Below, piece after piece: positions 168 through 56,321 of a stretch of DNA of 64,000 nt. Where the stretch lies: positions 8,680,001 to 8,744,000 of the forward strand of contig CM059452.1 of the NCBI GenBank assembly GCA_030390025.1, read 5' to 3'. The notes beneath the pieces were generated by a model. The model had not been told where the DNA came from and did no database searches. It saw only the letters and a list, made by a program, of their open reading frames with translations. Made by a program: the position numbers and the translations under genes. This stretch comes from Squalus acanthias (Eukaryota). Positions within the stretch are counted from its first letter, which is position 1. Every line of letters starts with the position of its first letter.

Positions 168-182
168 CCGCCAGAGGGCGCC
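168..182 (+). promoter_or_regulatory. CTCF-consensus motif in a duplicated intergenic block
   Basis: CCGCCAGAGGGCGCC; identical at 27752-27766 and 44900-44914 in paralogous blocks. Confidence 0.6.
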
Positions 183-542
183 GTGCTCATATGTTTCTCG
201 CTGCTTCCTCCGCACTCAGTCCCATGTTATTCATGATAGGTCGAAAACCATCAACATTTCAAACCTGTTCATATTTGTGTTGTGTTCCTGGTGTTCAGTA
301 AAATACCTACCCTCCCTCTTGTTCTGTCTTGTTTTCACCGTCACAATCTCTCTCCACCACGCTTACGAATGATTTCCTTATATTGCAAATCTTAAAGCAA
401 CTGCTAAGTGACATTTTTGGTAGTTTTGTAAAGCTGCAGTTTGAAAAAAAAAGTCTTATATATTAAAATATGTAATGGGCGACACATTCAGAGAGACAAG
501 ATTGTAACCCGAGTGAGGAGTTTCTCCCGTGTCTCAAACCAC

Positions 543-1209
543 TGTTGGACAGCCTCGAGAGATGTATGTTGGACATCTTGGGGAGTGACGGGTTAACAGT
601 CGAACTTCTCGGTATCTTGGATTAACAAGCTTCCAGGCTTTCAATATATAAACAGGATGACTTTGAAGTGTCGTAAAAAGAATGCACTGCTTGTTTTCTG
701 AGATGTAAAGTGCTTGTGTAAGGGAATAAATGATAGTAGTGACGTCACCCATGAGTGATTTAGTTTTAGGGTAATAAACATGGTTAGAAGGGAATCATTA
801 GCTACAGAGAGCAGTTGGTACAGCTGTTACTTCAAAGATGCTAGCTAACTGTTCTGTCAGGAAGTCTTGTTTAAGGGACGTAGTTATGAATTAAACAAAC
901 AACAAACTGTTTAGATGAATATTCCGTTTTCAAAGGGTCTGGGAATAGATACGTCATACAGGCTTATCTATGACATTCTCCTTTGATGTAGTCAAATATG
1001 GTGTATAAAGGATCATGGTTTTCAACAGTATCTCAGCGTGTACTCGAAAGATACTGAAACCGAAACAGTCACTCTCTGTATACAGTTAAAGACCGATCAC
1101 CTTCACTGTGCATCAATAAGGTCTGTTCCGCATACTCCACTACTGAGTCTCGTGCTTACTGGAAACGTGTTGCTGTGAACCAGAGGAGAAAGGATGTTGA
1201 CTGCTAACA
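543..1209. mobile_element. Solo LTR-like insertion
   Basis: Starts TGTTGG and ends CTAACA (TG..CA). Flanked by ACCAC (538-542) and ACCTC (1210-1214). Absent from the paralogous block near 45260, which reads ..TAACCACCATTT. Confidence 0.65.
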
Positions 1210-2041
1210 ACCTCCATTTCCCTCCCCGTGTGATTAATTTCCGCGCCTCCTGTTAGTTTCAGGCAGACTTTAATCTAACGGGTTCAGCAGATATTTAGGG
1301 AAGGGGCTCATATTCCCCTCCGAGCTATTGCCAACATAGTCGGATGATGGCGGTAAGATATTATCTCGAAGTGACAATATATCGGTTTGAATGTAGATGA
1401 AGATGTTCAGTTTATTTCACTCATTCTCAGTAATCAGACTGAGGTGGTTGATGGGGGTCGGGTTTAATTAACCTTCTGATGGGGTCACACAAGGGGAAGA
1501 TTTCCTCTGCTTTCTCTGTGGAATTCTCCTCTGAAAGTTGTTTTAACGAAATCGCAAGCTTATTTTGTTTTGTTAGAAATAGCGACCAGAGGAAATCTCA
1601 ACCACAGTGTGGACACCTCGGTGTAAACACGAATGTTACAGGAGAATGAAGTTAATGCTCTCGATGAGTCGTCACACACCAGCATAAAATAAACACTCAG
1701 TGTGACCGATTCGGCCCCGGTGAATATAATCCCACAATTAAGCAATGCTGAAGTTTTCCTCACACCAAGGAATGCACTCACTGAGTGACGGCTCCACAGG
1801 CCGATACTTTATGCTGTGACTGTCAGTATCTCTGATCAAACCCGCTATCAACTGGAAATTGTAGAGACAACACTTGCGGTAACACTGCCTGCGGCAGCCC
1901 CGCCCACAGCTTCCGTTCGCTGCTCTCGCTCTGACCCGCCTTGCCCGCCCTGTGTTTTTGGAGAGATTGCTGCAGCTGTTACGGGACTGTAAACAGGAGG
2001 GAGGTTTTTGTACAGTGACTGCCGCGTTTCCTCTCAGTGTG

Positions 2042-2469
2042 CGGCTTTATCGCACAGTAATACACCGCGGTGTCCGCGCTCTCCGTGCTCTCAATGACCA
2101 ATTGGCCGCGTTTGTCCGCAGTGGAAAGATCCAATTCAAATCGGTCCCTTTTCTCTTTGCCAGCTGATGCCCGCTTTATTATCCACTCGAGTCCCTGACT
2201 GGATTTCTGTTTGTACCAGTGCATGCCGTAAATGCTGGACATGTCATAGCTGCAGTTTATCTGCACCGAATCCCCGCTCCGGACTGTTATCGCAGTGGGA
2301 GACTGCAGCACTCGGTCCGAGAAACATCGACCTGTAAAAACATTCAGATAATAAAACACAGGAGCAACGTGAAAATAAACACTGCGGGTTATTGAGCACA
2401 GCTCCTGTACCTACATGGTAGCAGCACCAGAATAACGAGTGATACATTCACTTGTACCGAGTAATACAT
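2042..2469 (-). CDS. TCR alpha/delta-type V segment, intact
   Basis: Leader 2469-2415 (MYYSVQVNVSLVILVLLP), intron 2414-2332, V exon 2331-2042 (..INCSY..WYKQ..DTAVYYCAIK). RSS CACACTG(2041-2035)-23-ACAAAAACC(2011-2003). Confidence 0.9.
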
Positions 2470-2749
2470 CCTTGTAATTAAAATGTCAAGAGGAAAGCGG
2501 CAGACAGCTCGTATCAGAAGACCCCGAACCGAGTGACAACATTGAACAGGCGGCTGATTAAAGTCAGCGCCGCCCAGTTAAAGTCTCAGTCACGTGGGTT
2601 TGCTGTGCTTGGATTGGCTGGAAATAGACATTGTTCACCCGCGGTTCACATCCGGACATGTCAGTTGTCCAATGACCAGCAAGTTCCTCTCCTCCTTGTG
2701 GAGGGAAGTGAGGTGAACCCCATCCCTTTGTGATAGTGACTCACTAAAA

Positions 2750-3790
2750 CACGTACTGTGGAGGCTGCCCTGGGTGCTGACTGCACCAGTACACATCATG
2801 GGTAGTAGCGGCTGTTTTCAAGGCGCAGTTTAGTCTTCAACCGTTATTTCAGGAACCGGCTGTTCCACTGCGTCTTGCTGGCTCCATTCTAATGGGCCGA
2901 AAATTCATCCCGGGACGCGAGAGTACGCACTGCGTACTCTCGCGTATTCCCACTCCAATTGCCGGTTTTCTGCATGCCCTGCGCATGCGCTGAAAACCGG
3001 CAATTGCTCTTTTGAAAAGGGGGCGGCTCCTCGGTGCATCGCGTGCGCGCTACAGGCTGCGCGCACGCTGTGCACTTCATGCTTTGGACGCGCAGGTAAG
3101 TACGGAAGATTTTGGAAATGGAAAAAGGAGTAAGACCCACTTTTAAGAAGGTAAGTAGTGAATTAAGTATTTTTTTGAATTTTTTTTAACAGGTATATCT
3201 TTTTTAGAGACTTTAAAGACAGGTAAGTTTATTTTTATAACTTTTTAAAAGATTTTAAATTTTTTCAAAAATTTAATTTTTTATTTAAAATGGTTAATTT
3301 AATTAACTATACTTATTTTATTAATGTGATGGTTTTTTTTTAATTTAATTGAGGTTTAGCTGTTATTTTGGGGGGGTGTAAGATTCATAGATTTCACAGC
3401 ACGTAGGTGAAACTTATGAATGGAAGATGGTGTGCTGCCATTGGCTCTAACTGAGTCACGTGATCCCACAGCTCGCACGAATTCACTACGCCGCTGGGAT
3501 ACGCAAGCACTGCCCAGCTGATGTCTGGAACATCAAGTTCGTGCGAGCTGGATCTGAAAAAGCACAAGCGAGGTGAGAGATCGCGGGGAAGCCTTACCCC
3601 CGCCGGAACAGAGCGAGATCAATTTCTGGGCCTATAGTAATATTCATCTCCATCACAATCATCATCAGGATGATTTAACCATTTATCACAGCTGGGTTAC
3701 AGCCGTCAGGGGGAGAATGGATTTTAACTGGGGAGGAAATACTTACTGAGAAGTGATATAATGATGAGGAGCGGTGCGAGGCGGTTGCAC
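2750..3790 (-). pseudogene. Family A V pseudogene, 3'-truncated, intron interrupted by a DNA transposon
   Basis: FR1-FR2 relic at about 2750-2888 homologous to the 50226-50535 V exon, with an internal deletion. No FR3 or RSS. Leader relic at about 3747-3790 lacks its start. Confidence 0.8.
2894..3632. mobile_element. Non-autonomous DNA transposon with GGCC-type terminal inverted repeats (TIRs)
   Basis: Ends GGGCCGAAAATT / AATTTCTGGGCC with an AT-rich core. Homologous, inverted, to 19407-20133 and to the partial copy at 49300-49820. Splits an intron that is contiguous near 50540. Confidence 0.75.
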
Positions 3791-4544
3791 ATTCTACAGT
3801 CCTGGAAAACCTCTGTAGGAGCAGAAATACAGATCCCCGCCGCACTGCACTGCTGATCCAACCAATGCCAAAGAAGTAACAGAGGCAGTAATCCCTCCGA
3901 TAACAGAAGGCGGGTCAGAGCGAGAGCAGCAAACGGAAGCTATGGTCGGGGGTGCCGCGGGCAGGGTTACTGCAAGTTTTGTCTCCATCATTTCCAGTTG
4001 GTAACGGCGAGAAACATGTGACCACGGCGCCCTTTCGCGGTCACTCTGAGAACTTTGCACTGTCAGGATAATAGTTTGAGTAAGGTGTGAGTTTATCTAT
4101 GGCGAACTTTCCAGCGTCCGAGTTTTGGGAGAGGCGGTTCAGACAATTTAACAATTTTTGAATCTCTTTCTTTATGGCTTTCTCTTACCTTTAAGATTTA
4201 TGTTTCTCACTCGTTGTTTCTCACTTTCTTTAATTTCTCTTTCCCTCCTTTCCTAATTTGCTGTCCACTACACGTATTATTACGTTGATTTTTCCCTTTC
4301 TCTCATTCTTTCTTTAGTGCCTTCGCTTTGTTTTCCTTTGACTGTGTTGCAAAATTTCTTCATTTCAGAATTTCTTTAAATCTCTCTCTTCTATATTTCC
4401 TATTATTTTTCTGTGCTCAGTCCCTCTGCCCTCCGATTATTATAACCGGGCACCTCCCAATCCCGTTGCTCCAAACACAGCAGAGCGGCGCTGCCCCTCG
4501 GGGCAGGTTTCTGTGCGGACTCTCCGCCTGTTTGTTACACTGTG

Positions 4545-4878
4545 GGCTCACGGCGCAGCGATAGGTGGCGCTGTCTGTCACTCGCGCGTCTCTCACAATC
4601 AGGGCACTGAGTTTATTGCCTCCCCCGATTGAAGCAGTGATCCTCCCGTGTTGATCGGCCCCGCTTGTGGTCATCACCAGGTGCTGGAGGGTCTGATCCG
4701 GGTGCTGTCTGTACCAGTGCAGGACGGTAAACGCAGCGCTAGCGGAGCAGTTGATGGACACGATTCCCTCTTCACTGACAACCACCCGCCGAGGGAGCTG
4801 CTCCACCTCATCTGCACCGCTCAAATCCGTGCAGATCAGAGTGTAAATCAGCAGGGAAACTCTGTAAATCAGGAGCAT
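4545..4878 (-). CDS. TCR V segment, family B, leader and V in one exon
   Basis: Continuous ORF MLLIYRVSLLIYTLICTDLSGADEVEQ..INCS..WYRQ..DSATYRCAVS. RSS CACAGTG(4544-4538)-23-ACAGAAACC(4514-4506). Confidence 0.85.
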
Positions 4879-6574: not shown

Positions 6575-6654
6575 CACAGTGAGAAGGGCCTCGGGACACT
6601 TCGTACAGTAACCGTGTTCTGTGAGATCAGCTCATAGAAGCTGCATAAACCCGG

Positions 6655-6669
6655 CCACCAGGTGGCGCT
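6655..6669 (+). promoter_or_regulatory. CTCF-consensus motif downstream of RSS
   Basis: CCACCAGGTGGCGCT, about 41 bp 3' of the nonamer. Paralogs at 36870-36884 (-) and 23901-23915 (-). Confidence 0.7.
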
Positions 6670-7049
6670 GACAGAGCGCAGACTCTCAAAGCCGGTCACT
6701 TTCCATCAACCAATACTGACAGACAATTCCTCAAAATAAATTAACGTGAAAATTCTTTTTATTTCATATTTCTGCTCATTAATGTTATCCAATCCCTTAC
6801 AATTGAATAATTTCACAAGTTAGTTAAGTGTAAATGAGATGTGCACCTGGTTTTAACCCACTTCACTGATGAAGATTTCCGTGACTATTGAATAACATAA
6901 TAATTCTGCAATTCCTGTCGCGAGCCTACTTGTCCCGAATTTGTAATAAATGTGAAAGTAACGCAACTCTTATAGAGAGGCAGAGTTATAACATTTCGGA
7001 ACGGGACGTTGTTATTGAATTCAGTTCCTCACAGGTGGATCCCACATGT

Positions 7050-7721: not shown

Positions 7722-7785
7722 CACACTGCAGCAGAGATACAGCGGATCCCGTACAAAAACCCACACTGAGAGTTACAGTTAGTGC

Positions 7786-7800
7786 TCACCAGAGGGCGCT
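7786..7800 (+). promoter_or_regulatory. CTCF-consensus motif downstream of RSS
   Basis: TCACCAGAGGGCGCT, 24 bp 3' of the nonamer; same position in the other family A copies. Confidence 0.65.
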
Positions 7801-7867
7801 CTCACACCGATAAACAGAAGCGACAATTCAGCCTCCAAAGGTCGACAAAACACAACACGCAGCAAGA

Positions 7868-9763: not shown

Positions 9764-9799
9764 GTAATTATGGGCCAAACACATTACATCTTTTCTTTA

Positions 9800-24830: not shown

Positions 24831-25048
24831 CACAATGCAGCAAAGATCAGCAGAGACCGTACAAAAACTGTAGGCTGTGCCATTATCAGAGCGCTGGGTG
24901 TTTTATAACACTGTCCCTGGGAACCGCCCCCAGTCTCCCAATAAGTGAAGTCTGCTCCTGATCTCAGTTTGCACTTTAATATCAGACGAGAACGGTCAAC
25001 ATATTATAAAAATCTTGCTATTTTCTGTCGAACTCCAAACCAGGCATC

Positions 25049-25536: not shown

Positions 25537-26065
25537 GGTTTGTGTACGGGGCCTTTGCTTTTATCTGACGCCTCACTGCACAGTAATAGACCGCCCCGCC
25601 CTCCACACTCAGGCCGCTTATATTGAGTAACCGTACTTTCTAGATGTGTTAGCAGCCGCCGGATATTCTCCTCAGACTTCTTCACCTACTAGTTTGCTAA
25701 TTATCCAGCTTGGAGGCTGTGCCGGTTTCTGTCGGTACCTTTGCATGTGGACAATATCCGCGGTTGTATATTCACAATCTAATTGCACCGAACTCTCTTC
25801 TGAAACGGCTATTGTCACCAGAGACTGTCTTGCTGGATCTGCACATAGTCCTCCTGTAAAGATAGGGAACAAAAGAGCAGACGGTTAAACAGGATCGATC
25901 TAAACTTGTGTCTCTAACCTCCCATCTACCCATCATTTGGATACTTCTAACGAGTAATTGCATTAAATCCTTCCACAAGATCTTTGCATCCATCGGTTAA
26001 CGTGTGTTATTTGATATAATCCAGCACTTACTGTGCAACACAGCCGCCAGTATTATTAGCAACAT
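25537..26065 (-). pseudogene. V pseudogene with stops, frameshift and missing heptamer
   Basis: Leader 26065-26032 (MLLIILAAVLH), exon from 25853, premature stop, ..AVYYCAVR in another frame. Nonamer ACACAAACC at 25545-25537. Confidence 0.85.
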
Positions 26066-26791
26066 GAGTGACTCGATCCCTCGCAGTAACTTGGAATGGA
26101 ATGAGGCAGAGATTGAGAAGGAGAGAGGAAACCCCGGCTGTTCAGCTCATTATTCCGCCCACACACTGCAGGGGGCTGACTTCGATATGACGTCACTCAG
26201 ATACCGATTGGCTTTGGTGTTTGCATCACGTGACTTTCTAAGCCCCCTGCTTGAGTTTGGTGCCCTCTGCTGGCGGATTCGGATACATCGCTTTAGCATG
26301 AGGTAATTGAGGGGATTTAGGGTTTGTTAATCATATATAAAAACACTTGTGTCAGATATTGTGTCTCAAAAATCTATATTATAGCTGAATAAACACGGTC
26401 ATTATTTCTTATGCTTCCTTCATTTCCCTCTCACTCTGTTTGGTCCCAGTCACATTCAGTGAGCAATAGCAGTTTTACCACAGGCTTCTCGAGACCCAAT
26501 CATCGCTCTTTCCGTTCCATTTGCTCCGAGTGTAGCTGAGCGGCGCCGCGAACTTTCTGCGGTTACACAAAGCCCTGAACACGCTCAATATTTAGTCTGA
26601 GGCAGCCCCACCCACAGCTTCCGTGTGCTGCTCCCGCTCTGACCCGCCTTGCCTGCCCTGTGTTATTGGCGAGGTTGCTGCCTCTGTTCCATGTTTGGCA
26701 TTGGTTGGATCAGCAGTGCAGTTGGCGGGGTCTTTATTTCTGCTCCGACAAAGGATTTCCCGGACTGCAGAGTTACAGACTCAGGGAAATC

Positions 26792-27275: not shown

Positions 27276-28919
27276 CACACTGCTGCAGAGATATAGCGGA
27301 TCCCGTACAAAAACCCACACTGAGAGTTCCAATTAGTGCTCACCAGAGGGCGCTCTCACACCGATAAACAGCAGCGATAATTCAGCCTCCACAGTGAGAG
27401 TCACAGGAACCTTCTTAAAAGGGCAAGAAGCACAACACGCAGGTAAACTCCACTTGCTGAATTGTATTAGTTGGTGATTTCAACTCGCATTGATAATTAA
27501 AAAAAAATTCACAAATCCATCTGTGGTGCATGAACTCCCCTTTTATCTTCGATGTCCTTTCCGTGCCTACTTGTCCCTTCTCATCCCTTGTCTCCACTCT
27601 TTACCCAAAATCATATATATTTTCTTCTTCCAGTCTTGAGTTTAACGATGTAAAACGTTTGCTGCTGTTCGACGTATTAATTCGGAACCGCTCCATCGCA
27701 GTTAAGCATAAAGAGGAACTGGAGACAGCTCATTGACTAAACACAGAATATCCGCCAGAGGGCGCCGTGTTCACGTGTTTCTCTCTGCTCAATTGTGCAA
27801 AACCATCAACATTTGAAACCTGTTTATGTCTGTGTTTGTGTTCGTGGGGTTCAGTAAAGTTTCCCCTCACTGTTGTTTTTACAGCTATTCATCGTCACAA
27901 TCTCTCCCCATCACACTTATGAATTATTTTCTTATCCTGCAAATCTTAAAGCAACTGCGAGTGAAGTTTTTGGTAGGTTTGTAAAGCTATCGTTTGAAAA
28001 ATACCTGGAATGTAGGACATACCCATGGAGACAGGACTGTAACCAGGTGAGGAGTTTCTCCCGTGTCAGGAACCACCGTTTCCCTCCCCATTATATCAAT
28101 TTCAGCACAGTGTTAGTTTCAGGCAGACATTAATCTAACGGGTTCAGTGATATTCGGGGAAGGGGCGCATACTCCTCTCCGAGAAATTGCCATCACAATC
28201 TGATGATGACAGTAAGATGTTGTCTCAATGTGGCAAAGATAGGATTTGAAAGTAGATGACAATGTTCACTTAATTTCACTCACTGTCGCTAATCAGACTG
28301 AGGTGGTTGACGGGGTTCGGGTTTGATTAACCTTCAGCTGGGGACACAAGGGGATGATTTCCTTTGGTCTTTCAGTTTTAGTGACATCGCAAATAGAGTG
28401 GCAAATCTTTGGTCGCTGTTTTAGAATATTTCGTGCTGCTCCTGTGGGACTCCCAATCGAAAGTGCTTTCTTTTAGAAAGCGATCAATATTTAATTAGAA
28501 ACAGAGACCAGATGAAATCTACCCCACAGAGCGGGTACCTCGGTGTAAACACGAATGTTACAGGCGATGCTCTTGATGAGCCTGCTTACATCGGCAGAAA
28601 ATAAACCAGCACTCAGCAAACTGACTGATTTGCGCTCATTAAATAAATCCCCAAAACTCAGCAAAGCTGAAGCTTTACTCACACCGAAGACTGCGCGGAG
28701 TGACGGACTCCACCCTCAGGTATGTTAAGCTGTGGATCAAAGGGCTTCAACTGACACATGACTCTCATTCGAATCCTATTTCAATATATGGCGGGATTGG
28801 ATATTACATCATTAGAGGGGAACAATGAGACCAGGAAGTGACCTTGAACCAATAGGAGCCGCTGACGAGGTCTATTTTGGTCCTGGATTGGGCTTTTAAC
28901 GGGACCGACAGTTTCGGAC

Positions 28920-29042: not shown

Positions 29043-29358
29043 AATCCATAACTTTACGGGAAAACAGCTAATCAGAGGCAGAAAGGACAGTTTAACCGGT
29101 CGGTTCATTCTGTGATCGATCTTTTGGGCCGATTGGATTCTGCAGTTTGTTTCTCGGCCGCTCCTGGAAATAGTTGGGTAACAGTTTGATCCGAGGTTAA
29201 TTTGGTTTCCTCTCGGTGTGTGTTTGAGCGCCTGACAGCGCGCTGCACATTGTGGCTGCATCTGCCCGCGATTCCACAAAACCTCAACAGACAGGAGCTC
29301 CGCCCTACAGTCCAATAGCAGTTTTTGTACAGGGCTGAGACTGCTTTCCATCACTGTG

Positions 29359-29822: not shown

Positions 29823-31098
29823 TGTCGCTGTCCGCTCTGTAAAAGGGATTTGGATATTTGAAGACTCCCGTTCTACTCCCCGCCCTCAATAATCTGCTGT
29901 CGTGTCTCAGGATGCTCTCCCCTCACTTCCTTGTATCCCCAGTGGTGCTGTGAGACGGGTAGGTGGTGAGCTGGCTGCCAGTGAATGGAAACACCCCGAG
30001 CTGGGCTACAGTCAGTGCCCTTATAGGGGAATGGTTCCGCTTTTAGAGATCGGGGTGGGAATGAAACCCTTGCCTGTTCATTCTGAACGGAAATCACATG
30101 ATTGCTAATGGGTTTGTTTTATTCCAGGGGCAATTCATTCTCCAGAACGACGTTAGTTTTACCGACTCCAATGAGCTTTCCCTCACGGGTCAGTGAACTA
30201 ATGAACAAACAATGATCCCGTCTGTTCTCGGAGTGATTTATAGAGCCGCGACATTAGAACGATGACGTCTGCTGTTACTGAACAAACAATTGAACAGACT
30301 TAATGAATTAACTCTCCCTGTAATTTAAACAGCATTTCGAACAACCACCCCTTCTGTGGCTTGCATTTAAAATGCTGTTTAATGTCTATCTGATGATTTC
30401 TTTGCACCTGTAATGATTTATTTACTGATCCATTATCTTCAGATTTTGGATTTGCAATGAGAGAATGGAGGGGCGGCGCATTGACGTTTTTATGCAATTT
30501 ACCGCTCATCTGCTTAAAGTGCCCGGTACCCGAGGAGGGGTTGGGGCAGAGGGTTGAGAGCCTCCAGGGTGAGGTTTCGGGCGGGTTCTAGTTAACAAGA
30601 GCTCAACACCAGCAGGACATGAGAAACTGTCCTCACAACTTTCACTCGTATTAGAAATGGATGTGGCGCAGAAAAAGAAACACAATACAGGCGGTTTCGG
30701 TTTGTCTTTCGCCCCTTTAACATCGATCTCCACCATCGGTACAGTTAATGGGTTCAGTAATCAGATCTCAGGGTGTGTCCTTCACTCACATTTTAATATT
30801 CCTTTCCCCATCTTCCACACCCTTCCACTTGTCCTGCCCACTGGTTAGTATCAGAGGTCAATCCTTTGATATGCAGAATGTCTTTTTATGATGATTACAG
30901 CCAGTTGTACCGTCCCAGCGCATTGTGGATTTCAAATATTAATCTTCAATTCATTCCAAAATTGACACAACTGTTGGAAAAACGTCATGAACTCACTGCC
31001 CGGGGTCGCAGCCAGAAAAGGAATATTGTGACCTGACGCCCTCTGGTGGATATTATGAGAACTATTCAGATGTCAGTGCAGAGGGTGAGAAATTGTAT

Positions 31099-33458: not shown

Positions 33459-33901
33459 GTGAGAAATTGTATGTTTACTCACTAACCTGTCTGCAGTTTC
33501 TGTTTTTGGGAAGCTGGGTTGAAGCGGATATCCCTAAAAGAAACACAGACTTCACATCTGGTGAAACTAAAGACTGGAAAAAGGAAGTTCATATGATTAT
33601 GGGTAAAGCGTGGAGACGGGGGATGAGAAGAGACAGGGAGGCAAGGAAAGGGCATTGGAAGAAAGAAGTTCGTTAAGGCGGCACAGATGTAGTTGCAAAG
33701 TATATTTTTTTATCATAAATGCGTGTTGAAATCACCAACTAATATAATGGCGCCAGTGGACCTCTCCTGTTGTTGCTGAGTGTTGTGTTTTGTCGCTCAT
33801 TTAGAATCTTCCTCTGACTCTCACTGTCGAGGCGGAATTGTCTCCTCTGTTTATCGGGTTGAGAGCGCCCTCTGGTGAAACTAACTGAAACTCACAGTGT
33901 G

Positions 33902-35606: not shown

Positions 35607-35708
35607 ATTGCTTCTTGTTATCGGGGTGAGAGCGCCCACTGGTGAGCACTAACTGGAACTCTCAGTGTGGGTTTTGTGCGGGAGCCTCTGTATCTCTGCA
35701 GCAGTGTG

Positions 35709-36225: not shown

Positions 36226-36926
36226 GACGCTCCCTGAGTCTGTAACACTGCAGACCGGGAAATTCTCTGTGGGAGCAGAAATACAGATCCCCGCCCCACT
36301 GTACTGCTCATCCAACCAATGCCAAACAAGGAACAGCGGCAGCGATCTCTCCAATACAACAGGGCAGGCAAGGCGGGTCAGAGCGAGAGCAGCAAACGGA
36401 AGCTGTGGGCGGGGCTGCCGTGGGCAGCGTTATCATAGCTGGGATCCCCTGTGAGGAACTGAACTCAATAATAATGTCCCCTTCGGAAATTATAGAACTC
36501 TGCCTCTCTATAAGGGCTGAGTTACTTTCACATTCATTACAAATTCGGGCAATCAGGCTCGCGATAGGAATTGCAGAATTATTATATTAATCAATAGTTA
36601 ACAAAATATTCGGCAGCGATGTGGGTTAAAACCAGGGGCTGAAACTAGCGGAGAGAAGTCGAACAAAATGGCAACTGATCCAAATGTTCTGGAGATGCAC
36701 ATCCCGTTTACACTTAACTAACTTCTGAAATTATGAAACTGTAAATGAATGTAAAACATTATGAGCATAAATCTGAGCTCAAAAGCAATTTCACGTTAAT
36801 TTATATTGAGAAATATCAGTCAGTATTGGTTAATGTAAGGTGCGCGGCGGTGGGAATCCGCGCTCTGTCAGCGCCACCTGGTGGCTGAGTTTGAAGTATC
36901 TCCTTTGAGCTGATCTCACAGAAAAC

Positions 36927-38329: not shown

Positions 38330-38820
38330 AGCCTTTTTGTCTGTGTGTTTTTCTGTCTGTATTTTTGAGTGTGAATGTATGTGTCTGTATGTGTGGTTAT
38401 GTGCTTGTGTCTGTGTGTGTTTATCTGTCTGTCTCTGTTTATCTGTGCATGTTTGTCTGTGTGTCGGTATGTGTGATTCTCTGTGTTTGTGTTTGCAGTG
38501 CTCGAAGTGAGGCTTGTACAGGACACAGGAGGGCGCATTCTGATCATTTGTTAAAGATCTTTCATCTTAAACAACACAGCTGAATATACATAAGTATCCT
38601 CCACAACATATCAACTAGTTGTGTGCATCTCGGTTTATGTCGTGTGTGTATGTGTATGTGTGTGTATGTGTCTCTATGTATATGGTGTCTGTGCGTGTGT
38701 GAGTGTGTATATGAAGGGTATGTGTGTGATGTATGTGTGTGTGTGTGTGTCTATCTGTGTATGGGTGTCTGTGTGTGTATGTGTATGACTGTCTGTGCAT
38801 GTGTGTATGTGTATATGGAT
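38330..38820. repeat. (TG)n-rich tracts
   Basis: Degenerate TG microsatellites, each followed by a CTCF-like ACAGGAGGGCGC (38523-38537, 38867-38881). Confidence 0.8.
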
Positions 38821-39069
38821 ATCTATTTGTCCTTTTTGCGAATATGCTACACCATGCTTGTACTATCCACAGGAGGGCGCTCTCTGATCACTTTATAAAG
38901 ATGATGATCCCAACATAAAGGAAGTGGCTGTTCAGACCTATACAAATGGGCGGGGAGCAGAAATCCAAACCGATCTGATGAGATCCCTGCGCTGGTTCAG
39001 TTGATCCCATTCCAAGCCCGGTATAGGCAATGATCACAGTCTCTTGTTTCTGGAGTTCAGACTAAAACC

Positions 39070-39541: not shown

Positions 39542-40507
39542 CACAGTGAATAAGGGACCCTCTATCCTCATACAAAAACATGACACATCGGCAACAAGGG
39601 TGGGCTCCGGGAAAATACCAGGGATTGAATCCCAGAGAGTTTGTCGAGGAAATAAATGTGAAAATACTGCCTGATCCGAGCGGTTTTCTCTCATTAAATT
39701 CATTGCTGTCAGTGTTGGGGTAAATGACGTCTCGCTATCATTTTAATGCAGCGTCAAATTGAGACATTTCCAGCTCCCTGTTAGCTCAGACATGCAGATC
39801 TCTGGGATGAATAACAGGATCAATCTGTACAAGTAAGAATCCTGGATATGGTGCATATCTGCCAAGTGACATCTTTCAAAAGCGATCTAATCTCAGAGTC
39901 GGCCTCGGGGGCGTCACACTTCCAAACTTCTGGGATTCCAGTGGTAAAACATAGTGACTGACTGAAATCAGCACTTTACTGGAACAAGTTGAGCCTCAGT
40001 GGTATCACATCCCGGTGTGACTATTTAACATGCCCGCGTGGCTTTAGGACTGTAACTATTAATGATGTTGATGGATTGGAGGGTATTCTTTAATACCAGG
40101 GCTTGAGACTAATTTGGAATTATTTTACTTTTCACCTTAATTAGAGAGAGATCTACCTATCTATATATAGAGACATTGAGTTCCACAGAAAGAGAGACAA
40201 AGCGAGAAAGAGACAGAAAGACTGACAAAGAGACACAGGGCAAGAGAGTGAGACAGGGAGAAAGACACACAGACACTGACAGGAAAGGAAAGTGTTTGGA
40301 GAGAGCCAGGAGTAATTGGTCCTCAACTAACACTGATTGGTCCACAGCTGACGTCAGTTCTGTATGACCAGCCAATCCGGGCCCTGAGAAACGCCCCTCG
40401 GTTTCCAAATAGGTGAAGCCTGCCGCTGAGTTGGGTTTACTGTTTAGTATCAGACTACAACGGTTCAAAACATCCTGCTATTTTCTGTCGAACTCTAACC
40501 AAATACT

Positions 40508-44337: not shown

Positions 44338-46228
44338 CCCCCGAGTACTTGTAGATTAGACCTTATTCTGTTCATTATAATACATATGTACCTTTATTAA
44401 TAATAAATGTATAATATTTCTATACAAATGTAGCTAGATGAGCGAAATGCCTTTATTGAGGTAACCAGGCTGATGACTGACAGACAGATGGACAGCGGCC
44501 TCTCTGGGCCTCGCTCACTTGTTCTCCCTCAGCAGGGGGGTGGGGCAGCTTGTATCAGGGTTTCCCCAGTGCAGACACAGAACAATGATCACGGGCATCC
44601 GGCACCAGTTGAACTGAAAGGAAATGAAAGTCAGTTGTTATGAATGCGGATTGCGGGTTGTTGTTGTTTGTGTGCGGATCAGAAAGGGTCAAATCTCCCA
44701 GCGGAAACTGTGAATTTCCAAGCTCCACTTCATCTAATTAATTTTTGTCCTTGTAAGTGTTGATGTACAAGGCTCGACATTCGCCATCAGCATCACCGCA
44801 ACAGACCTCCCCATAAATGGACACTGGGAACTGCCCGATACACACACTTATTGTCTGTTTTCACCCAGTATCCGAACAATGTAAAAGGTCTCGTCGTATC
44901 CGCCAGAGGGCGCCGTGGTCCCAAGTTTCTCGCTGCTCCCTCGGGACTCGAACCATTGTTCTTCCTGATTTGTGTAAACGCATCATAATTTCAAAGCCTA
45001 CTGCGTTTGTGTTCGTGCGTTTGTGTTCGTGCGATTCAGCAAAGTTTCCCCCCATCTCTTTTAATTGTCAGCTATTCATCGTCACAATCTCTACCACGCT
45101 TATTAATTATTTCCTTATACTGCAAATCTTAAAGCGACTGCGAGTGACATCTTTGGTAGGCTGCCGTTTGAAAAAAAAACCCTTACATATTAAAATCTGC
45201 AATGAATGACACACTCAGAGAGACGGGACTGTAACCCGGGTGAGGAGTATCTCCCGTGTCAATAACCACCATTTCCCTTCCCATGTGATTAATTTCAGCA
45301 CAGTGGAATGGCGCCTCCTGTGAGTTTCAGGCAGACATCAATCTAACGGGTTCAGCAGATATTTGGGGAAGGGGCTCATATTCCCCTCCGAGCAATTACC
45401 AACACAGTCGGGTGATGGCGGTCAGATATTATCTCGAAGTGACAATATATCGGTTTGAAAGTAGATGAAGCTGTTGTTTATTTCAATCACTGCCACTAAT
45501 CAGACTGCGGTGGTTGACGGGGAGTCGGGTTTGATTAACCTGCTGGGGACCCATAGTGGGAAGATTTCCTCTGGTCTCTCTCTGGAAATCTCATCCACAA
45601 GTTGTTTTAACGAAATCGCAAGCTGATTATTTTAGAATGTGTTCACTATTTCGTTAGAAGTAGCGACCAGAGTAAATCTACCGCACAGAGCGGATAGTTC
45701 AGTGTAAACAAAATTGTTACAGGAGAAGGAAGTTAATGCTCTCGGTGATCCGTCACACACGACATAAAATAAACAAACACTCAGTGTGACGAATTCGGGC
45801 CCATTAAATAAATCCCCAAACCTCAGCAAAGCTGAAACTTTCTTCACACCATAGGCAGCGCTCACTGAGTGACTGGCTTCACCTTCAGATACTTTATGCT
45901 GTGGTTCAAAGGGTTTCAACTGAGCCATGAGCCGCAATTGAATCTCATTTCAATATATGGCGGGTGTATTGGAGAAGGTGTCATTGGAGGGGGACAATGA
46001 GAGCAGGAAGTGACGCGTGGACTATGTCACTGGAAGTAGCGACCAGAGGAAATCTGCTGCACAGAGCGGACACCTCGGTGTAGAAACGAATGTTGCAGGA
46101 GCATGACATTATTGCTCTCGTTGAGCCGTCATACACCGACAGGAATTAAACCAACACTCTGACGAGGTCGATTCCGGTCCGGAATTGGGATTTTCAAGAG
46201 ACCGACAGGTTCGGGCTCGGCAGCGGCC

Positions 46229-46683: not shown

Positions 46684-47034
46684 CACAGTGATGGAAAGCA
46701 GTCTCACCCCCGTACGAAAACTACCATTGGACGGTAGGGCGGAGCTCCTGTCTGTTGGGGTTGTGTAGCATCGCGGGCAGATGCAGCCACAATGTGCAGC
46801 GCGCTGTCAGGCGCTCAAACACACACCGAGAGGAAACCAAATTAACCTCGGATCAAACTGTCACCCAACTGTTTCCAGGAGCGGCCGAGAAAACAAACTG
46901 CAGAATCCAATCGGCCCGAAAGATCGATCACAGAATGAACCGACCGGTTAAACTGTCCTTTCTGCTTCTGATCAGCTGTTTTCCCTTTAAAATCATGGAT
47001 CGATGTTCAGATTTGCTCCGAGAAAGTGGTCGCT

Positions 47035-49820: not shown

Positions 49821-50225
49821 CGCCTGTGTGTGTGTGTGTCTCCCCCAATCTCTATATAAAGATGAGAGATAATTATATAGAAAAATGAATAAAAGGAAGA
49901 CAGAAGGAGGATGTAAAGTTTGGTTTGTAATATTGGAAAATAATGACTGGTTGAAGCTGTTCCCGGTAACCTCGCCACAAGCAGGCTGTTTAAAATCGAT
50001 TCAATATACCCATTTGAGTTTGTTGTAAAGTGTTTGTGCAACAGAGCAGCAGCAGGTTATTGGGAAAGAGACGGACACACGTTACTCGCAGGTCTCTGTC
50101 TCTCACTGTGGAGTCTGAATGATCGCTTCTGTTTAGCGGGGTGAGAGCGCCCTCTGGTGAGCACTAACTGGAACTCTCAGTGTGGGGTTTTTGTACGGGA
50201 TCCGCTGTATCTCTGCAGCAGTGTG

Positions 50226-50725: not shown

Positions 50726-51569
50726 GACACTCCCTGGGTCTATAACTCTGCTGTCCGGGAAATCCTCTATCGAAGCAGAAGTAAAGACTCCCGCGCCACT
50801 GCACTGCTGAAACAACCAATGCCAAACAGGGAACAGCGGCAGCAATCTCTTCAATAACACAGGGCAGGCAAGGCGGGTCAAAGCGAGAGCAGCAAACGGA
50901 AGCTGTGGGAGGGGTTGCCGCGGGCAGTGTTACCGCAAGATTTGTTTCTACAATTTCCAGTTGATAACGGCAAGAAACATGTGACCACGGCGCTCTCTGC
51001 CGGTGACTCTGAGAATTTCACACTGTCAGGATAAAGGACAGAGTAAAGTGTGAGTTAATCGGTGGGGCAGTATCCAGAGGCCTGTTATTGGGAGACAATG
51101 TGTATTGTTTCAGACAATTCAGCTTTGTAAATAGGGGGAAGGGAGATGTGAATTAATTTAAAGGAAAGGACATTTTACTTTATTCCTGAATCTCTTTCTT
51201 TATGGCTTTCTCTCACCTTTTTGCTTTGTGTTTCTCACTCGTTATTTCTCACTTTCTTTCATTTCTCTTTCCATCCTTTCCAAATTTGCTGTCCTCTACA
51301 CTCTCGTTATTTCACCGCTTTTTCTCTTTCTCTCTCTCGTTCTCTGCTTTCTCTTTCTTTTCCTCTGTCTCTGTTTCCAACTCTCTTCATTTCTCACTTT
51401 CTTTAAATCTCTCTCTTCAATATATCATCATTGTTCTGTGCTCAGTCCCTCTGCCCTCCGATTATTATAACCGATCCCCTTCCCAATCCCGTTACTCCAA
51501 ACACAGCAGAGCGGCGCTCCCCTCGGGGCAGGTTTCTGTGCGGACTCTCCGCCTGTTTGTTACACTGTG

Positions 51570-51903
51570 GGCTCACGGCGCAGAGATAGGTGGCGCTGTC
51601 TGTCACTCGCGCGTCTCTCACAGTCAGGGCACTGAGTTTATTGCCTCCCCCGATTGAAGCAGTGATCCTCCCGTGTTGATCGGTCCCGCTTGTGGCCATC
51701 ACCAGATGCTGGAGGGTCTGATCCGGGTGCTGTCTGTACCAGTGCAGGACGTTAAACCCAGCGGTAGCGGAGCAGTTGATGGACACGATTCCCTCTTCAC
51801 TAACAACCACCCGCCGAGGGAGCTGCTTCAACTCATCTTCACCGCTCACATCCGTACAGATCAGAGTGTAAATCAGCAGGGAAACTCTGTAAATCCGGAG
51901 CAT
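51570..51903 (-). CDS. TCR V segment, family B, leader and V in one exon
   Basis: MLRIYRVSLLIYTLICTDVSGEDELKQ..DSATYLCAVS. RSS CACAGTG(51569-51563)-23-ACAGAAACC(51539-51531). Confidence 0.85.
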
Positions 51904-52081
51904 TATCCGATCAGATGAAAACGCTACTGAAGGAATTGTACACGGAGTGCGGGTTAGAACCAGGACACGGATGTTATATTCAGGATAATTAACAAGGAGA
52001 CAAACACCCGCTTCATGTTGAAATCAGAGGCTTCTTCCTGTCGAAATAATTAAACAAGCTGTGTCTCAGGGTTTACCCAAC

Positions 52082-52475
52082 CCGGACCGCCCACACTCAG
52101 TGTTTCTCACTGACACCTGCTCACACTGTCTCTGAGCTCACACCGGACCGCCCACACTCGGTGTTTCTCACTGACACCAGCTCACACTGTCTCTGAGCTC
52201 ACACCGGGCCGCCCACACTCAGTGTTTCTCACCTACACCAGCTCACACTGTCTCTGAGCTCACACCGGGCCGCCCACACTCAGTGTTTCTCACTGACACC
52301 TGCTCACACTGTCTCTGAGCTCACACCGGACCGCCCACACTCGGTGTTTCTCACTGACACCAGCTCACACTGTCTCTGAGCTCACACCGGGCCGCCCACA
52401 CTCAGTGTTTCTCACCTACACCAGCTCACACTGTCTCTGAGCTCACACCGGGCGGCCCACACTCAGTGTTTCGCA
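52082..52475. repeat. 61-bp minisatellite, about 6.5 copies
   Basis: Unit starts at 52082 and 52143; fewer than two copies in the paralog at about 5060-5163. Confidence 0.95.
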
Positions 52476-52479
52476 CAAA

Positions 52480-53335
52480 TTTATCTCTCTCCCTCTGTTG
52501 GTGTCTCTGTGTATCACTGTGCTCAGTCACACCTTTATCTCTCTCCCTCTGTTGGTGTCTCTCTGTATCACTGTGCTCAGTCTCACCTTTATCTCTCTCC
52601 CTCTGTTGGTGTCTCTCTGTATCATGTGCTCAGTCACACCTTTATCTCTCTCCCTCTGTTGGTGTCTCTCTGTATCTGTGTGCTCAGTCACACCTTTATC
52701 TCTCTCCCTCTGTTGGTGTCTCTCTGTATCACTGTACTCAATCTCACCTTTATCTCTCTCCCTCTGTTGTTGTCTCTCTGTATCACTGTACTCAGTCTCA
52801 CCTTTATCTCTCACCCTCTGTTGGTGTCTCTGTATCACTGTACTCAGTCTCACCTTTATCTCTCTCCCTCTGTTGTTGTCTCTCTGTATCACTGTGCTCA
52901 GTCTCACCTTTATCTCTCTCCCTCTGTTGGTGTCTCTCTGTATCATGTGCTCAGTCTCACCTTTATCTCTCTCCCTCTGTTGGTGTCTCTCTGTATCACT
53001 GTACTCAGTCTCACCTTTATCTCTCTCCCTCTGTTGGTGTCTCTCAGTAGCACTATATTCTGTCACACCTTTATCTCTCTCCCTCTGTTGGTGTTTCTCT
53101 GTATCACTGTACTCAGTCTCACCTTTATCTCTCTCCCTCTGTTGGTGTCTCTCAGTAGCACTATATTCTGTCACACCTTTATCTATCTCCCTCTGTTGGT
53201 GTCTCTCTGTATTACTGCGCTCAGTCACACCTTTATCTATCTCCCTCTGTAGGTGTCTCTCTGTATCACTGTGCTCAGTCACACCTTTATCTAGCTCCCT
53301 CAGCTGGTGTCTCGCTGTATTACTGTACTCAGTGC
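52480..53335. repeat. 54-bp minisatellite, about 16 copies
   Basis: Unit TTTATCTCTCTCCCTCTGTTGGTGTCTCTCTGTATCACTGTGCTCAGTCACACC. Confidence 0.95.
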
Positions 53336-54068
53336 TACGATCCCTACCATGAGAACGAAGGTTCTTTTTTGACACAGAGGATTGTTGGGACATAAATTTC
53401 CCAACCAAAAGCCGCGAGGAAGCTGAATCCATAATAACGTTTAAAACGTAAATAGGTTAATATTTGAAAAAGAAACTCACGTGTGTAGTGAAAGAGGAGA
53501 AGAATTGGACTGAGCGAACAGTTTCCTCGGAGAACTGTCACAGGTCCAATGTGGTCCTTCTGATTACGGGAGTCAGCTGGGCAAATCAATCGATATATTG
53601 ATGACCGATTGAGTTTCAGCTGAAGCAGAAGATGTGAGACTGTCACGGACATTAACTCTAGCAGATCTCGTATGACTGACAGCGAAACTGAGGTGAGAAA
53701 CCGAGGCCTTCTATCGTGATGTCTCCTGGCTCCTGAACCATTGCAGGGAAGTTATGCAGAGGCAGAGAGCGCGGTCTCATGGAGTCTGGGCAATTTGCAG
53801 CCTCAATGATCACCGCCAGCTTTAATACAGAGTGAGACGGAGCTTTGAGTAAACAGTATAAATCAGTCATGGGGGATATTCACCTCTTCCTGCTCTAATT
53901 ATCATGTGCGTGTTACCTAACTGGTTTTAATCATTCTGCTCTATAAACTGCTGTTTTTCAATGTCAATGGAGTTGGGAGGAGACTCGTGTGGAGCATAAA
54001 GACAGGTATAGACCAGTTGGGACGAATGACCTGTTTCTGTGCTGTACATTCTGTGTAATTCTTAAATT

Positions 54069-54353
54069 GTGTCCAATGATGCTCCGAGTTTGGCCCAGAT
54101 TTCTCAACCTGCCCGAGAGTTCGCAGTGGAAGGAAACCCCGATAGGATCCAGTGCGGGTTCAGCAACACCGACAACACCTGTTGGTACAGCCGACTGGTG
54201 AGCGAGGCCCCGGGATACATCTATTGTAGATTCAAAGGAGAGCGCCACCAAGGCCGGTTTAAGATCCACACCGACCGGGATCAAAGTCTGAGCACACTCG
54301 GCATCGACCAGGCAGAGTTGGTGAATACCCGAATCTATTACTGTGCCGTGGGC
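54069..54353 (+). pseudogene. Divergent V exon; open frame, no clean leader or acceptor, extra Cys pair
   Basis: ..IQCGF..TCWYSR..YIYCRF..TRIYYCAVG. RSS CACAGTG(54354-54360)-23-ACAATATCT(54384-54392). Confidence 0.7.
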
Positions 54354-55009
54354 CACAGTGTGGGGGAAAGGCCCCGCTCTCCTACAATATCTCCTCTCTG
54401 AGCAAAGCCTTGGTAGATTGGGTGACAGTCAAATCGGTCCCGAAATCGACCAGTTCAGGCAAAGGGCGGTGGTCAATCCGCAGTTATATTTCTCAATATT
54501 AATTAAGGTGAAATTCCTTTTTATTTCACATTTCTGCTCATTAATTTTATAATTTCCTTACAGTTTTTTTTTCTATTTCCCACCGCTAGTTTCAGCCCCT
54601 GGTTTTAACCCACTTCACTGCTGAAAACTTTGGCAACTATCGAATAATATAATAATTCTGCAATTCCTGTCGCCAATCTGCTTGACCCGAATTTGTAACG
54701 AATGTAAAAGTGACGCAGCCCTTATATAAAGGCACAGTTGTATTATTTCCGATGGGGACATTATTACTGAATTCAGTTCCTCACAGGTGGATCCCACGTG
54801 TGACAACACTGCCCGCGGCAGCCCCGCCCACAGCTTCCGTTTGCTGCTCTCGCTCTGACCCGCCTTGCCTGCCCTGTGTTATTGGAGGGATTGCTGCCTC
54901 TGTTCCCTGTTTGGCATTGATTGGATCAGCAGTGCAGTGGGGCGGGGATCTGTATTTCTGCTCCATTGAGGATTTCCAGGACTGCAGAGTTACAGACTCA
55001 GGGAGCGTC

Positions 55010-55484
55010 ATGTGGAACCGTCTTGCACCGCTCCTCATCATTATCTCACTTCTCAGTAAGTATTTCCTTCCCAGTAAACATCCATTCTCCCCTTGACTGC
55101 TGTAGCCCAGGTGTTATTATTGGTGAAATGATGATGAAGATGATAATGTGATGATGACTTTTACTATTATTTAAGCTTAGAATGGAGCCACCAAGACACA
55201 GTAGAACAGCCGATTCCCGAAATGATGGTTGAAGAGGAAAGTAATCTCACACTAACCTGCACCTTGAAAACCAGCGATCCTAACCCTTCTGTATTCTGGT
55301 ACAGTCAGCGCCCCGGGAAGAATCCACAGTACATGCTTTATCTCTATGGAACGATAGTAAACCGGGATGCTGGCTTCACTGACCGATTCTCTCCTACGTT
55401 CAATCGAACTACCAAGATTACCGAGCTAACGATCGGCAAAGCCCTGATCTCCGACACCGCCGCGTATTTCTGTGCCATGAGCCC
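55010..55484 (+). CDS. TCR V segment, family A, intact
   Basis: Leader 55010-55055, V exon 55181-55484. RSS CACACTG(55485-55491)-24-ACAAAAACC(55516-55524). CTCF-like motif 55549-55563. Confidence 0.9.
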
Positions 55485-55958
55485 CACACTGCTGTAGAGA
55501 TATAGCGGCTCCCGCACAAAAACCCACACTGAGAGTTCCAGATAGTGCTCACCAGAGGGCGCTCTCACCCCGATAAACAGCATCAATAATTCAGCCTCCA
55601 CAGTGAGAGTCACAGGGACCTTCTTAAAAGGGAAATAAAACACAACTCTCAACAAGAACCGGTGAGGCTCACCGGCGGAATTATATTAGTTGGTGATTTT
55701 AACTCGCATTTATAGTAAAAAAATACATTGCGCAAAGGCAACTGCGGCGCCTTTTGTCTTTCGATGCCCTTTCCGTGCCTCCCTGTCCCTTCTCGTCCCC
55801 TGTCTCCACTCTTTACTTGTAATCTTATGAATTTCCTTCTTCCAGTGTTTAGTTTAACGATGTAAAGCCTTTGCTGCTGCTCGGCATATTAATTCAGAAC
55901 CGCTCCAACCTAGCTTCCCAAAATAGGAATTGCAGACAGGGCAGTCAATAAACGCAGT

Positions 55959-56070
55959 GGCCTAGAGATTCGTCTCGGTCCATGGAGCTGAATATCAGGC
56001 GCTGCGTATAACCGGCGGCCGATCCGATACCGCCCGTCTTGCGCCACTGCCCGGGACGAATTTCTGGGCC
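55959..56070. mobile_element. 112-bp MITE with GGCC-type TIRs
   Basis: GGCCTAGAGATTCGTCTCGG versus inverted GGCCCAGAAATTCGTCCCGG (17 of 20 match). Confidence 0.7.
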
Positions 56071-56321
56071 GAAATTTCTCACACCCTGTGCACCGGCATC
56101 TGAACAGTTCTAAGATTATCCACCAGAGGGCGTCAGATCACAATATTCCTTTTGTGGCTCAGACCCCGGGGCTTTGAGTTAAATGTTGTTTCTCGAATTG
56201 TTGTGCAAATGTTGGAATTAACATTTGAAACCACGTGCCACAATGGTCTGGGTCGGTACGTCGGGCAATAATCATCACAAAGGTCATCCATCACATCGAA
56301 GGATATAATTCTGAAACTAAC

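What the first reader, a model, noticed from the sequence alone, without database searches (positions are those of the whole stretch)
168..56134. CTCF-consensus motifs sit just downstream of V RSSs and flip with their V
Seen: family A has TCACCAG(A/T)GGGCGCT about 24 bp past the nonamer at 7786, 27340, 55549 (+) and 33864, 35631, 50146 (-). Family C has (C/T)CACCAGGTGGCGCT about 41 bp past it at 6655 (+) and 36870 (-), plus a V-less relic at 23901 (-). Further motifs lie at 168, 27752, 44900, 56120, 38523, 38867 (+) and 26259, 31035 (-). Known: these fit the CTCF core, and RSS-adjacent CTCF elements promote use of proximal mouse VH genes during cohesin-driven RAG scanning. Inference: a comparable RSS-CTCF module exists in a cartilaginous-fish TCR locus, in two unrelated V families, but in mixed orientation. 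Many copies come from duplication, so they are not independent observations.
Basis: partly seen in the sequence, partly recalled or inferred. Interest (0 to 1): 0.72.

Follow-up and report, generated by a model that had tools for sequence, protein, structure and literature searches.

The report
CTCF sites across shark TCR genes
The variable gene pieces of this shark T-cell-receptor locus are studded with conserved DNA motifs matching the genome-folding protein CTCF, some just behind the recombination signal and more upstream of the genes, so sharks likely fold this locus for gene assembly much as mice do, although binding is untested.

Summary
The motifs are real: 18 matrix hits of 15 bits or more in the window against 0.67 in shuffles. 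The window lies in a multi-megabase TCR alpha/delta V array. Of 266 V segments with a recognisable RSS, 56 carry a motif within 80 bp of the nonamer, all in V sense. They descend from two ancestral modules (gaps 20-22 and 38-40 bp). The core changes 2-3 times less than its flanks among paralogues, and in module A mostly at CTCF-tolerant positions. RSS adjacency itself is not enriched: 2 of 32 motif lineages, P 0.08-0.18. Twelve lineages lie upstream of V genes, as in mouse Tcra/d. Flipping with the V is best explained by block inversion. Three listed sites are relics or lack a heptamer; 38523 scores below threshold. An unplaced contig shows J-pointing motifs in proximal Vs and one strong reverse motif between C-delta and J-alpha, where mouse has its TEA site. 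TCR beta has a third RSS-adjacent module. No binding or V-usage data. This scan noted the same thing before on other DNA of this genome. New variant of a known kind.

The parts
6575..6613 (+). RSS, 23-bp spacer, of an open family C (G07) V segment
6652..6670 (+). Module C CTCF motif, 25.9 bits, 38 bp past the nonamer, V sense
7722..7761 (+). RSS, 24-bp spacer, of an open family A (G01) V segment
   Evidence: V domain matches TCR alpha/delta and antibody V domains
7783..7801 (+). Module A CTCF motif, 17.7 bits, 21 bp past the nonamer; T instead of C at matrix position 4
   Evidence: covered in three other organisms with one tolerated change listed in the core
27276..27355 (+). Family A RSS (24) plus module A motif at 27337-27355
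55485..55564 (+). Family A RSS (24) plus module A motif at 55546-55564
35630..35708 (-). Family A RSS (24) plus weakened module A motif at 35630-35648 (12.8 bits)
50145..50225 (-). Family A RSS (24) plus module A motif at 50145-50163
33863..33881 (-). Module A motif (15.1 bits) on a relic without V exon or heptamer
36869..36887 (-). Module C motif (24.3 bits) behind a broken family C V whose heptamer is deleted
23900..23918 (-). Module C motif (20.3 bits) on an old V-less, RSS-less relic lineage (3 copies seen), about 960 bp upstream of the nonamer of an oppositely oriented V at 24831
26258..26276 (-). Upstream-class motif (23.1 bits, lineage 2), 731 bp upstream of the nonamer of the G04 V at 25575 (-), V sense
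38864..38882 (+). Upstream-class motif (15.3 bits, lineage 11), 708 bp upstream of the nonamer of the G12 V at 39542; the listed look-alike at 38523 scores under 11 bits
5247..5265 (-).
165..183 (+). Intergenic motif, 19.3 bits, lineage 6
27749..27767 (+). Intergenic motif, 19.3 bits, same 19-mer as 165 and 44897
44897..44915 (+). Intergenic motif, 19.3 bits, lineage 6, about 1.8 kb upstream of the nonamer of the G00 V at 46684
31034..31052 (-). Intergenic motif, 18.8 bits, lineage 3, about 1.7 kb upstream of the nonamer of the G00 V at 29358 (-)
56117..56135 (+). Intergenic motif, 18.8 bits, lineage 3
16692..16710 (-).

Best explanation
The V array of this shark TCR alpha/delta locus carries many conserved CTCF-type motifs, mostly facing the same way as the neighbouring V gene, which likely bind CTCF and would stall cohesin loops so that V segments meet the D-J end of the locus, as in mouse. 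Shown: motif match, density, conservation of the core, co-orientation, two RSS-adjacent modules among 32 lineages, a larger upstream class, and one strong reverse motif between C-delta and J-alpha on contig C911. Inferred: occupancy, loop stalling, and that C911 is the D-J-C end of the array that holds the window. Each motif was copied and inverted together with its V. A consequence (inference): any V that faces the recombination centre for deletional joining also has a convergent site, while inverted Vs would need Igk-like diffusional or inversional capture. The RSS-adjacent modules are one placement of this general grammar; an extra RSS-specific effect as for mouse proximal VH is possible but not shown.
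For: Density: 18 exact matches of a strict pattern in 524 kb of contiguous array against 364 in 3.71 Gb; 2 hits of 14 bits or more in 510 kb of C911 beyond the TCR V array and 0 in six V-poor C29 tiles plus one NAR-TCR tile. Constraint: in stretches not chosen for the motif, core changes 6 of 78 (expected 14.6, p 0.006, 28 copies) for A and 4 of 70 (expected 10.7, p 0.013, 13 copies) for C. Changes in the A 19-mer cost less score than random ones (p 0.0009; C p 0.06). Three other organisms cover module A with one listed core change, a tolerated one, against 6 varying positions in the 21-bp gap. Orientation: 56 of 266 V with a sense motif within 80 bp, 0 antisense; 27 of 32 lineages in V sense (p 1e-4); 42 of 53 proximal motifs on C911 point to J. 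TCR beta has an unrelated module, 31 hits, all facing a J cluster. Skate TAD borders carry oriented CTCF sites (PMC10115646, passages). Mouse Tcra/d has 129 of 144 sites pointing to J-C and a reverse TEA site (PMC5859386, section 20).
Against: No binding, chromatin or usage data. The matrix was recalled, not read from a database. Module A has an invariant T at a position where the matrix prefers C. Copies behind broken Vs keep the motif about as well as intact ones, which fits recent duplication or RSS-independent selection. Parsimony counts assume equal mutation rates and no gene conversion. In the contiguous distal array motifs are 48 plus and 41 minus, unlike Igh or mouse Tcra/d. The physical link and direction between C29 and C911 were not shown. 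No INT1/INT2-like forward site of 14 bits or more lies between the V array and J-delta. Nearest-V assignment is ambiguous in a dense array.
Confidence: 0.68

Rival explanations
1. A dedicated RSS-CTCF module as at mouse proximal VH: CTCF bound right behind the RSS stalls RAG scanning and opens that RSS, raising use of families A and C. It would have been recruited at least three times in shark TCR loci.
For: Three unrelated modules (A, C, V-beta) all lie 17-40 bp past the nonamer in V sense. Gap length is tight in A (20-22 bp, 46 copies) and C (38-40 bp, 11 copies). Module A, with its RSS, moved onto a second V family and persists in 7 of 14 members. Families with modules have RSSs that depart from consensus (24-bp spacer, non-consensus nonamer), so they might need help (inference). 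Mouse sites lie 17-19 bp and human sites 19 or 48 bp past the nonamer (PMC6746451).
Against: 2 of 32 lineages is compatible with chance placement (expected 0.46-0.77, P 0.08-0.18). About 3 of 35 alpha/delta families carry one; the largest family (G00, 0 of 50) does not. V-beta gaps are 17, 27, 31 and 34 bp, so no fixed helical phase. RSS-less relics keep the core (0, 0 and 1 differences in 14, against 13-16 in about 94 flank positions). IgH-like Vs inside the locus have none (0 of 30), so no continuity with mammalian VH is shown.
Confidence: 0.33
2. Neutral hitch-hiking: a few motifs arose by chance next to ancestral V genes and were multiplied by tandem duplication and inversion without function.
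For: All 76 exact family A motifs lie on the five contigs that hold these V arrays and share flanks. 225 hits collapse to 35 lineages. Paralogues are young, so absolute numbers of changes are small.
Against: Core is 2-3 times more conserved than the flanks and changes follow CTCF tolerance. 32 separate lineages in the V arrays against 2 hits in 510 kb of neighbouring D-J-C DNA. 27 of 32 lineages share V sense.
Confidence: 0.1
3. The sites bind CTCF but act mainly as local insulators or promoter organisers between closely packed V genes of mixed orientation, not in recombination loops.
For: 12 of 32 lineages lie 600-1400 bp upstream of a nonamer in V sense (expected 4.0-6.8, P 0.0003-0.025, zone chosen after seeing the data). 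Module C often lies about 1.1 kb upstream of the next V's nonamer. PMC6746451 (Discussion) raises this role for upstream Igh sites.
Against: Does not explain the J-pointing bias in the proximal array, the lone reverse site before J-alpha, or the uniform D-J-pointing sites of TCR beta.
Confidence: 0.2

Closest known systems
RSS-associated CTCF sites of mouse and human IGH VH genes (PMC6746451: abstract, first third of Results, Discussion, supplement Tables S1 and S3 rows; bioRxiv 10.1101/2020.01.01.891473: passages)
   Same: CTCF core a short, family-typical distance past the V nonamer; confined to some V families; one orientation relative to V transcription; core more conserved than the intervening DNA.
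   Different: TCR rather than IgH; distances about 22 and 40 bp in the paper's mouse frame (my alignment of the motifs) against 17-19 in mouse and 19 or 48 in human; spread through the whole array, not only D-proximal; half of the distal Vs and their sites are inverted; IgH-like Vs in the same locus lack sites; binding untested.
Mouse Tcra/Tcrd CBE architecture: V-promoter CBEs, INT1/2, TEA-CBE, EACBE (PMC5859386: passages and section 20; PMC10516640: passages)
   Same: Many sites upstream of V genes, mostly pointing to J-C in the proximal array (42 of 53 here, 129 of 144 in mouse); one strong reverse site between C-delta and the J-alpha array; motifs downstream of C-alpha.
   Different: Mouse Tcra/d sites are listed as upstream or intergenic, not RSS-adjacent; no INT-like site was found here; the 3' motifs here are weak (12-13.6 bits), tandemly duplicated and point into the locus, whereas the mouse site beside E-alpha is described as pointing away; the distal array is mixed about 50:50.
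Mouse Igk locus with Cer/Sis (PMC13190342 and PMC12820099: abstracts only; PMC5859386 section 20)
   Same: Multi-megabase V array with deletional and inversional V clusters and CTCF sites in both orientations.
   Different: In Igk site orientation does not correlate with V orientation and sites are mostly intergenic; here it does correlate (27 of 32 lineages) and two modules touch the RSS.

Membership tests
RSS-associated CBE (Igh type) | Match to the CTCF core motif | tested here: met
   17.7 bits (A) and 25.9 bits (C), p below 1e-6 per position under the recalled matrix; A has T at matrix position 4
RSS-associated CBE (Igh type) | Fixed short distance downstream of the nonamer | tested here: met
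   20-22 bp in 46 copies and 38-40 bp in 11 copies; distances differ from mouse and human
RSS-associated CBE (Igh type) | One orientation relative to V transcription | tested here: met
   56 sense, 0 antisense among 266 V
RSS-associated CBE (Igh type) | Core more conserved than the RSS-to-site spacer | tested here: met
   Unbiased sets: core against gap p 0.031 (A) and 0.036 (C)
RSS-associated CBE (Igh type) | All sites point to the recombination centre | tested here: not met
   Module A copies are 25 plus and 22 minus on C29; met only in the sampled TCR beta
RSS-associated CBE (Igh type) | Enriched next to RSSs beyond the locus background | tested here: inconclusive
   2 of 32 lineages, P 0.08-0.18
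RSS-associated CBE (Igh type) | CTCF occupancy in rearranging lymphocytes and effect on V usage | not testable with these tools
   No ChIP data; no RNA holder listed
Tcra/d CBE architecture (mouse) | Many V-upstream sites pointing to J-C | tested here: met
   12 of 32 lineages upstream in V sense; 42 of 53 proximal sites point to J; motif level only
Tcra/d CBE architecture (mouse) | Reverse site between C-delta and the first J-alpha (TEA position) | tested here: met
   22.8-bit reverse motif at C911:664,092, between a C exon at 583 kb and J segments from 681 kb; TEA promoter identity not tested
Tcra/d CBE architecture (mouse) | INT1/INT2 forward sites between V array and D-delta | tested here: not met
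   No forward hit listed at 14 bits or more from 350 to 860 kb of C911; best are 13.4-14.0 bits, three of them in repeat-derived DNA
Dispersed repeat carrying a CTCF motif | Copies spread over the genome | tested here: not met
   All 76 exact family A motifs are on C29 (6.5-10.3 Mb), C449, C559, C911 and C3620

The most novel reading that the evidence does not exclude
The CTCF grammar of antigen-receptor loci (V-sense sites plus a reverse anchor before J-alpha) predates the split of sharks and bony vertebrates, and sharks recruited RSS-adjacent CTCF sites at least three times in TCR alpha/delta and beta, one as a mobile RSS-plus-site cassette swapped between V families. Tying each site to its V makes every deletionally oriented V convergent with the recombination centre, even in an array scrambled by inversions.
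Probability: 0.33. Interest if true: 0.72.

Novelty: new variant of a known kind. Interest (0 to 1): 0.48.

Why it matters
CTCF control of V(D)J joining has been worked out in mice. If these sites are bound, loop-extrusion control of TCR assembly is as old as jawed vertebrates, and the shark locus gives natural controls: V family G06 with and without the cassette, inverted and direct copies of the same V, and IgH-like Vs without sites. These make the open question of how inverted V segments are captured over megabases testable by repertoire sequencing and Micro-C.

Tried and rejected
First conservation run was contaminated by other V families; redone with membership decided on flanks only, dropping 10 of 61 (A) and 3 of 22 (C) rows. 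Twenty tiles were partly chosen around exact motif hits, so results on stretches of 40 kb or more are given apart. A dispersed-repeat origin was rejected. Homology between modules A, C and V-beta was rejected (p 0.17-0.93). A weak 11.1-bit match directly after the nonamer of family G03 and 12.8-bit matches 65 bp behind two G09 Vs were not counted. A strict genome-wide RSS-plus-motif pattern and a D-beta pattern gave 0; a looser pattern found TCR beta. No RNA holder listed. Run X9 laid nothing; X8 gave thin cover. One search showed only 40 of 447 differences, so it was not used for conservation. No downstream marker gene was recognised in C911 784-860 kb, so C911 could not be placed against C29. 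Jain 2018 is not held; one search fetched an unrelated paper. The Pfam check was not completed. Paper searches for CTCF with shark TCR gave 0; two searches were uninformative; PMC12227049 has 0 occurrences of CTCF. Subscription papers and bioRxiv supplements were not searchable.
Full report
Locus. The window is G000:C29:8,680,001-8,744,000. It holds 26 called V segments on both strands; the family A domain matches TCR alpha/delta and antibody V domains. Family A modules run from 6.5 to 10.3 Mb of C29 and onto four small contigs. One of these, C911, carries IgM constant exons, V segments of the same families at 23-347 kb, IgH-like Vs at 377-519 kb, a D and J cluster at 558-576 kb, a C exon at 583 kb, a long J array at 681-778 kb and a C exon at 782 kb. 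I read this as TCR alpha/delta from the layout; the C exon alone matched only generic Ig constant domains. That C911 is the D-J-C end of the window's array is inferred from shared families; link and direction were not shown.

Observation. An exact pattern finds 13 of the 17 listed sites (chance 0.03). A CTCF matrix recalled from memory scores 16 of 17 at 12.8-25.9 bits, and 38523 below 11. The window has 18 hits of 15 bits or more against 0.67 in 100 shuffles. The site at 33864 has no V exon or heptamer, 36870 has no heptamer, and 23901 is V-less. A strict pattern occurs 18 times in 524 kb of contiguous array and 364 times in 3.71 Gb (the tool warns that repeat counts can be lower bounds).

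Independence. In 1.66 Mb of fetched DNA I called 305 V segments. Of the 266 with a recognisable RSS, 56 have a hit of 14 bits or more within 80 bp of the nonamer, all in V sense. They belong to two modules. Module A (gap 20-22 bp) lies on family A and on 7 of 14 members of family G06, which took over the family A 3' end by a crossover at the end of FR3. Module C (gap 38-40 bp) lies on family C. Their flanks are unrelated. About 32 other families have none, the largest 0 of 50. All 225 hits fall into 35 lineages, 32 near a V; 27 of these are mostly in V sense (p 1e-4). The 60 bp behind nonamers make up 2.9% of the non-repeat, non-coding array, so 0.46-0.77 lineages are expected there and 2 were seen (P 0.08-0.18). 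Twelve lineages lie 600-1400 bp upstream of a nonamer in V sense (P 0.0003-0.025; zone chosen after the fact). RSS adjacency is therefore a minority placement in a motif-rich array.

Constraint. With membership decided on flanks and trees built without the motif, the 14-bp core shows 0.43 changes per site in module A against 1.05 in the gap and 1.25 downstream (28 copies from stretches not chosen for the motif, p 0.006). Module C shows 0.29 against 0.76 and 0.93 (13 copies, p 0.013). Heptamers show 0.57 (10 of 61 and 3 of 22 rows dropped as other families). Changes in the A 19-mer cost less matrix score than random changes (p 0.0009); for C p is 0.06. Contigs from three other organisms cover module A; the only core difference listed is a tolerated one, against six varying positions in the gap (1 of 4 runs laid nothing; how distant these organisms are is unknown). 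Against an RSS-specific role: broken Vs keep the motif about as well, and three RSS-less relics of module C keep the core while flanks differ at 13-16 of about 94 positions.

Architecture. In the proximal array of C911, 42 of 53 motifs and 63 of 82 Vs face J. In the contiguous C29 stretch motifs are 48 plus and 41 minus, Vs 53 and 57. From 350 to 860 kb of C911 only two hits are listed at 14 bits or more, both reverse; the strong one (22.8 bits) lies between C-delta and J-alpha. Nine weak reverse motifs lie in a duplicated unit past C-alpha. Following a lead from earlier scan notes, a genome-wide RSS-plus-motif pattern gave 31 hits, all in one TCR beta V family on C3311, each facing a J cluster, with gaps of 17, 27, 31 or 34 bp in the 30 loci read. 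In 50 kb of TCR beta read whole, 4 of 12 Vs belong to that family, and an upstream motif lineage is also present on the same strand. IgH-like Vs (0 of 30) and three TCR gamma-like Vs lack RSS-adjacent motifs.

Mechanism. Most likely CTCF binds these sites and stalls cohesin extrusion, pairing V-sense sites with reverse anchors at the D-J end (inference; the direction convention for the motif is recalled). Skate TAD borders show oriented CTCF sites (PMC10115646, passages). Motif and V were duplicated and inverted as blocks, which accounts for the flipping. Because the site follows its V, a V in deletional orientation always has a convergent site. Inverted Vs would need diffusion-type capture, as described for Igk, where inversional joins also turn upstream Vs into deletional orientation (PMC13190342 and PMC12820099, abstracts). 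An added local effect on the RSS, as for mouse proximal VH (bioRxiv 10.1101/2020.01.01.891473, passages), stays open.

Comparison. Mouse VH sites lie 17-19 bp and human sites 19 or 48 bp past the nonamer, with over 98% of mouse sites in one orientation; that survey covered mouse, human, chimpanzee and rabbit (PMC6746451). Mouse Tcra/d has 144 bound sites, many upstream of V promoters, 129 pointing to J-C, and a reverse TEA site; in Igk site and V orientation do not correlate (PMC5859386; PMC10516640). The shark locus works like a blend of these but fails Igh-type membership on uniform orientation and is untested on occupancy. Searches for CTCF with shark TCR found no paper, and a recent shark locus paper does not mention CTCF (PMC12227049); subscription journals were not searched. 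The scan had noted the same motifs on other DNA of this genome; those notes are not independent support.

Verdict. Real and probably functional CTCF sites; the locus-wide grammar is better supported than a dedicated RSS module. New variant of a known kind, interest 0.48.

Noticed in passing
window 7722-7761, 27276-27315, 35669-35708, 50186-50225, 55485-55524: Family A has a 24-bp RSS spacer in 37 of 40 copies, outside the usual 23; whether it rearranges efficiently is unknown.
   Followed up: partly
G000:C29 7,707,203; 8,185,629; 8,673,223; 8,762,411; C911 51,035: Chimeric V genes: family G06 body with the last 30 nt, RSS and CTCF motif of family A (identity switches from about 0.45 to 0.92 at the end of FR3); 7 of 14 members.
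   Followed up: yes
G000:C911:664,074-664,092 (L001): Lone strong reverse CTCF motif (22.8 bits) between C-delta and the first J-alpha, at the place of the mouse TEA site.
   Followed up: partly
G000:C911:808,500-820,500 (L123-L125): Nine weak reverse motifs (12.1-13.6 bits) in a tandemly duplicated unit 26-38 kb past the C-alpha exon; possible 3' anchor array.
   Followed up: partly
G000:C3311: TCR beta looks mirror-duplicated: plus-strand Vs to 946 kb, D and J at 960-979 kb, minus-strand J at 1.096-1.099 Mb and minus-strand Vs beyond 1.107 Mb, from sparse tiles.
   Followed up: partly
G000:C911:1-10,000 and 377,000-519,000: IgM constant exons at the contig start and 29 tandem IgH-like V segments before J-delta, with no CTCF motif of 14 bits or more among them. 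More than 100 J-alpha segments lie at 681-778 kb.
   Followed up: partly
G000:C3:187.4-190.6 Mb and C7:139.9-146.5 Mb: Clusters of one identical strict CTCF 15-mer in both orientations, perhaps other gene arrays.
   Followed up: no
G000:C8:145.10-145.16 Mb (L209, L210): Co-oriented TCR gamma-like V cluster; 3 of 3 Vs inspected lack an RSS-adjacent motif.
   Followed up: partly
window 6614-6632 and 6671-6679: Further conserved blocks in module C beside the CTCF core, possibly other factor sites.
   Followed up: no
window 29246-29358 and 46684-46796: A second, oppositely oriented RSS-like element lies about 70 bp behind the family G00 RSS.
   Followed up: no
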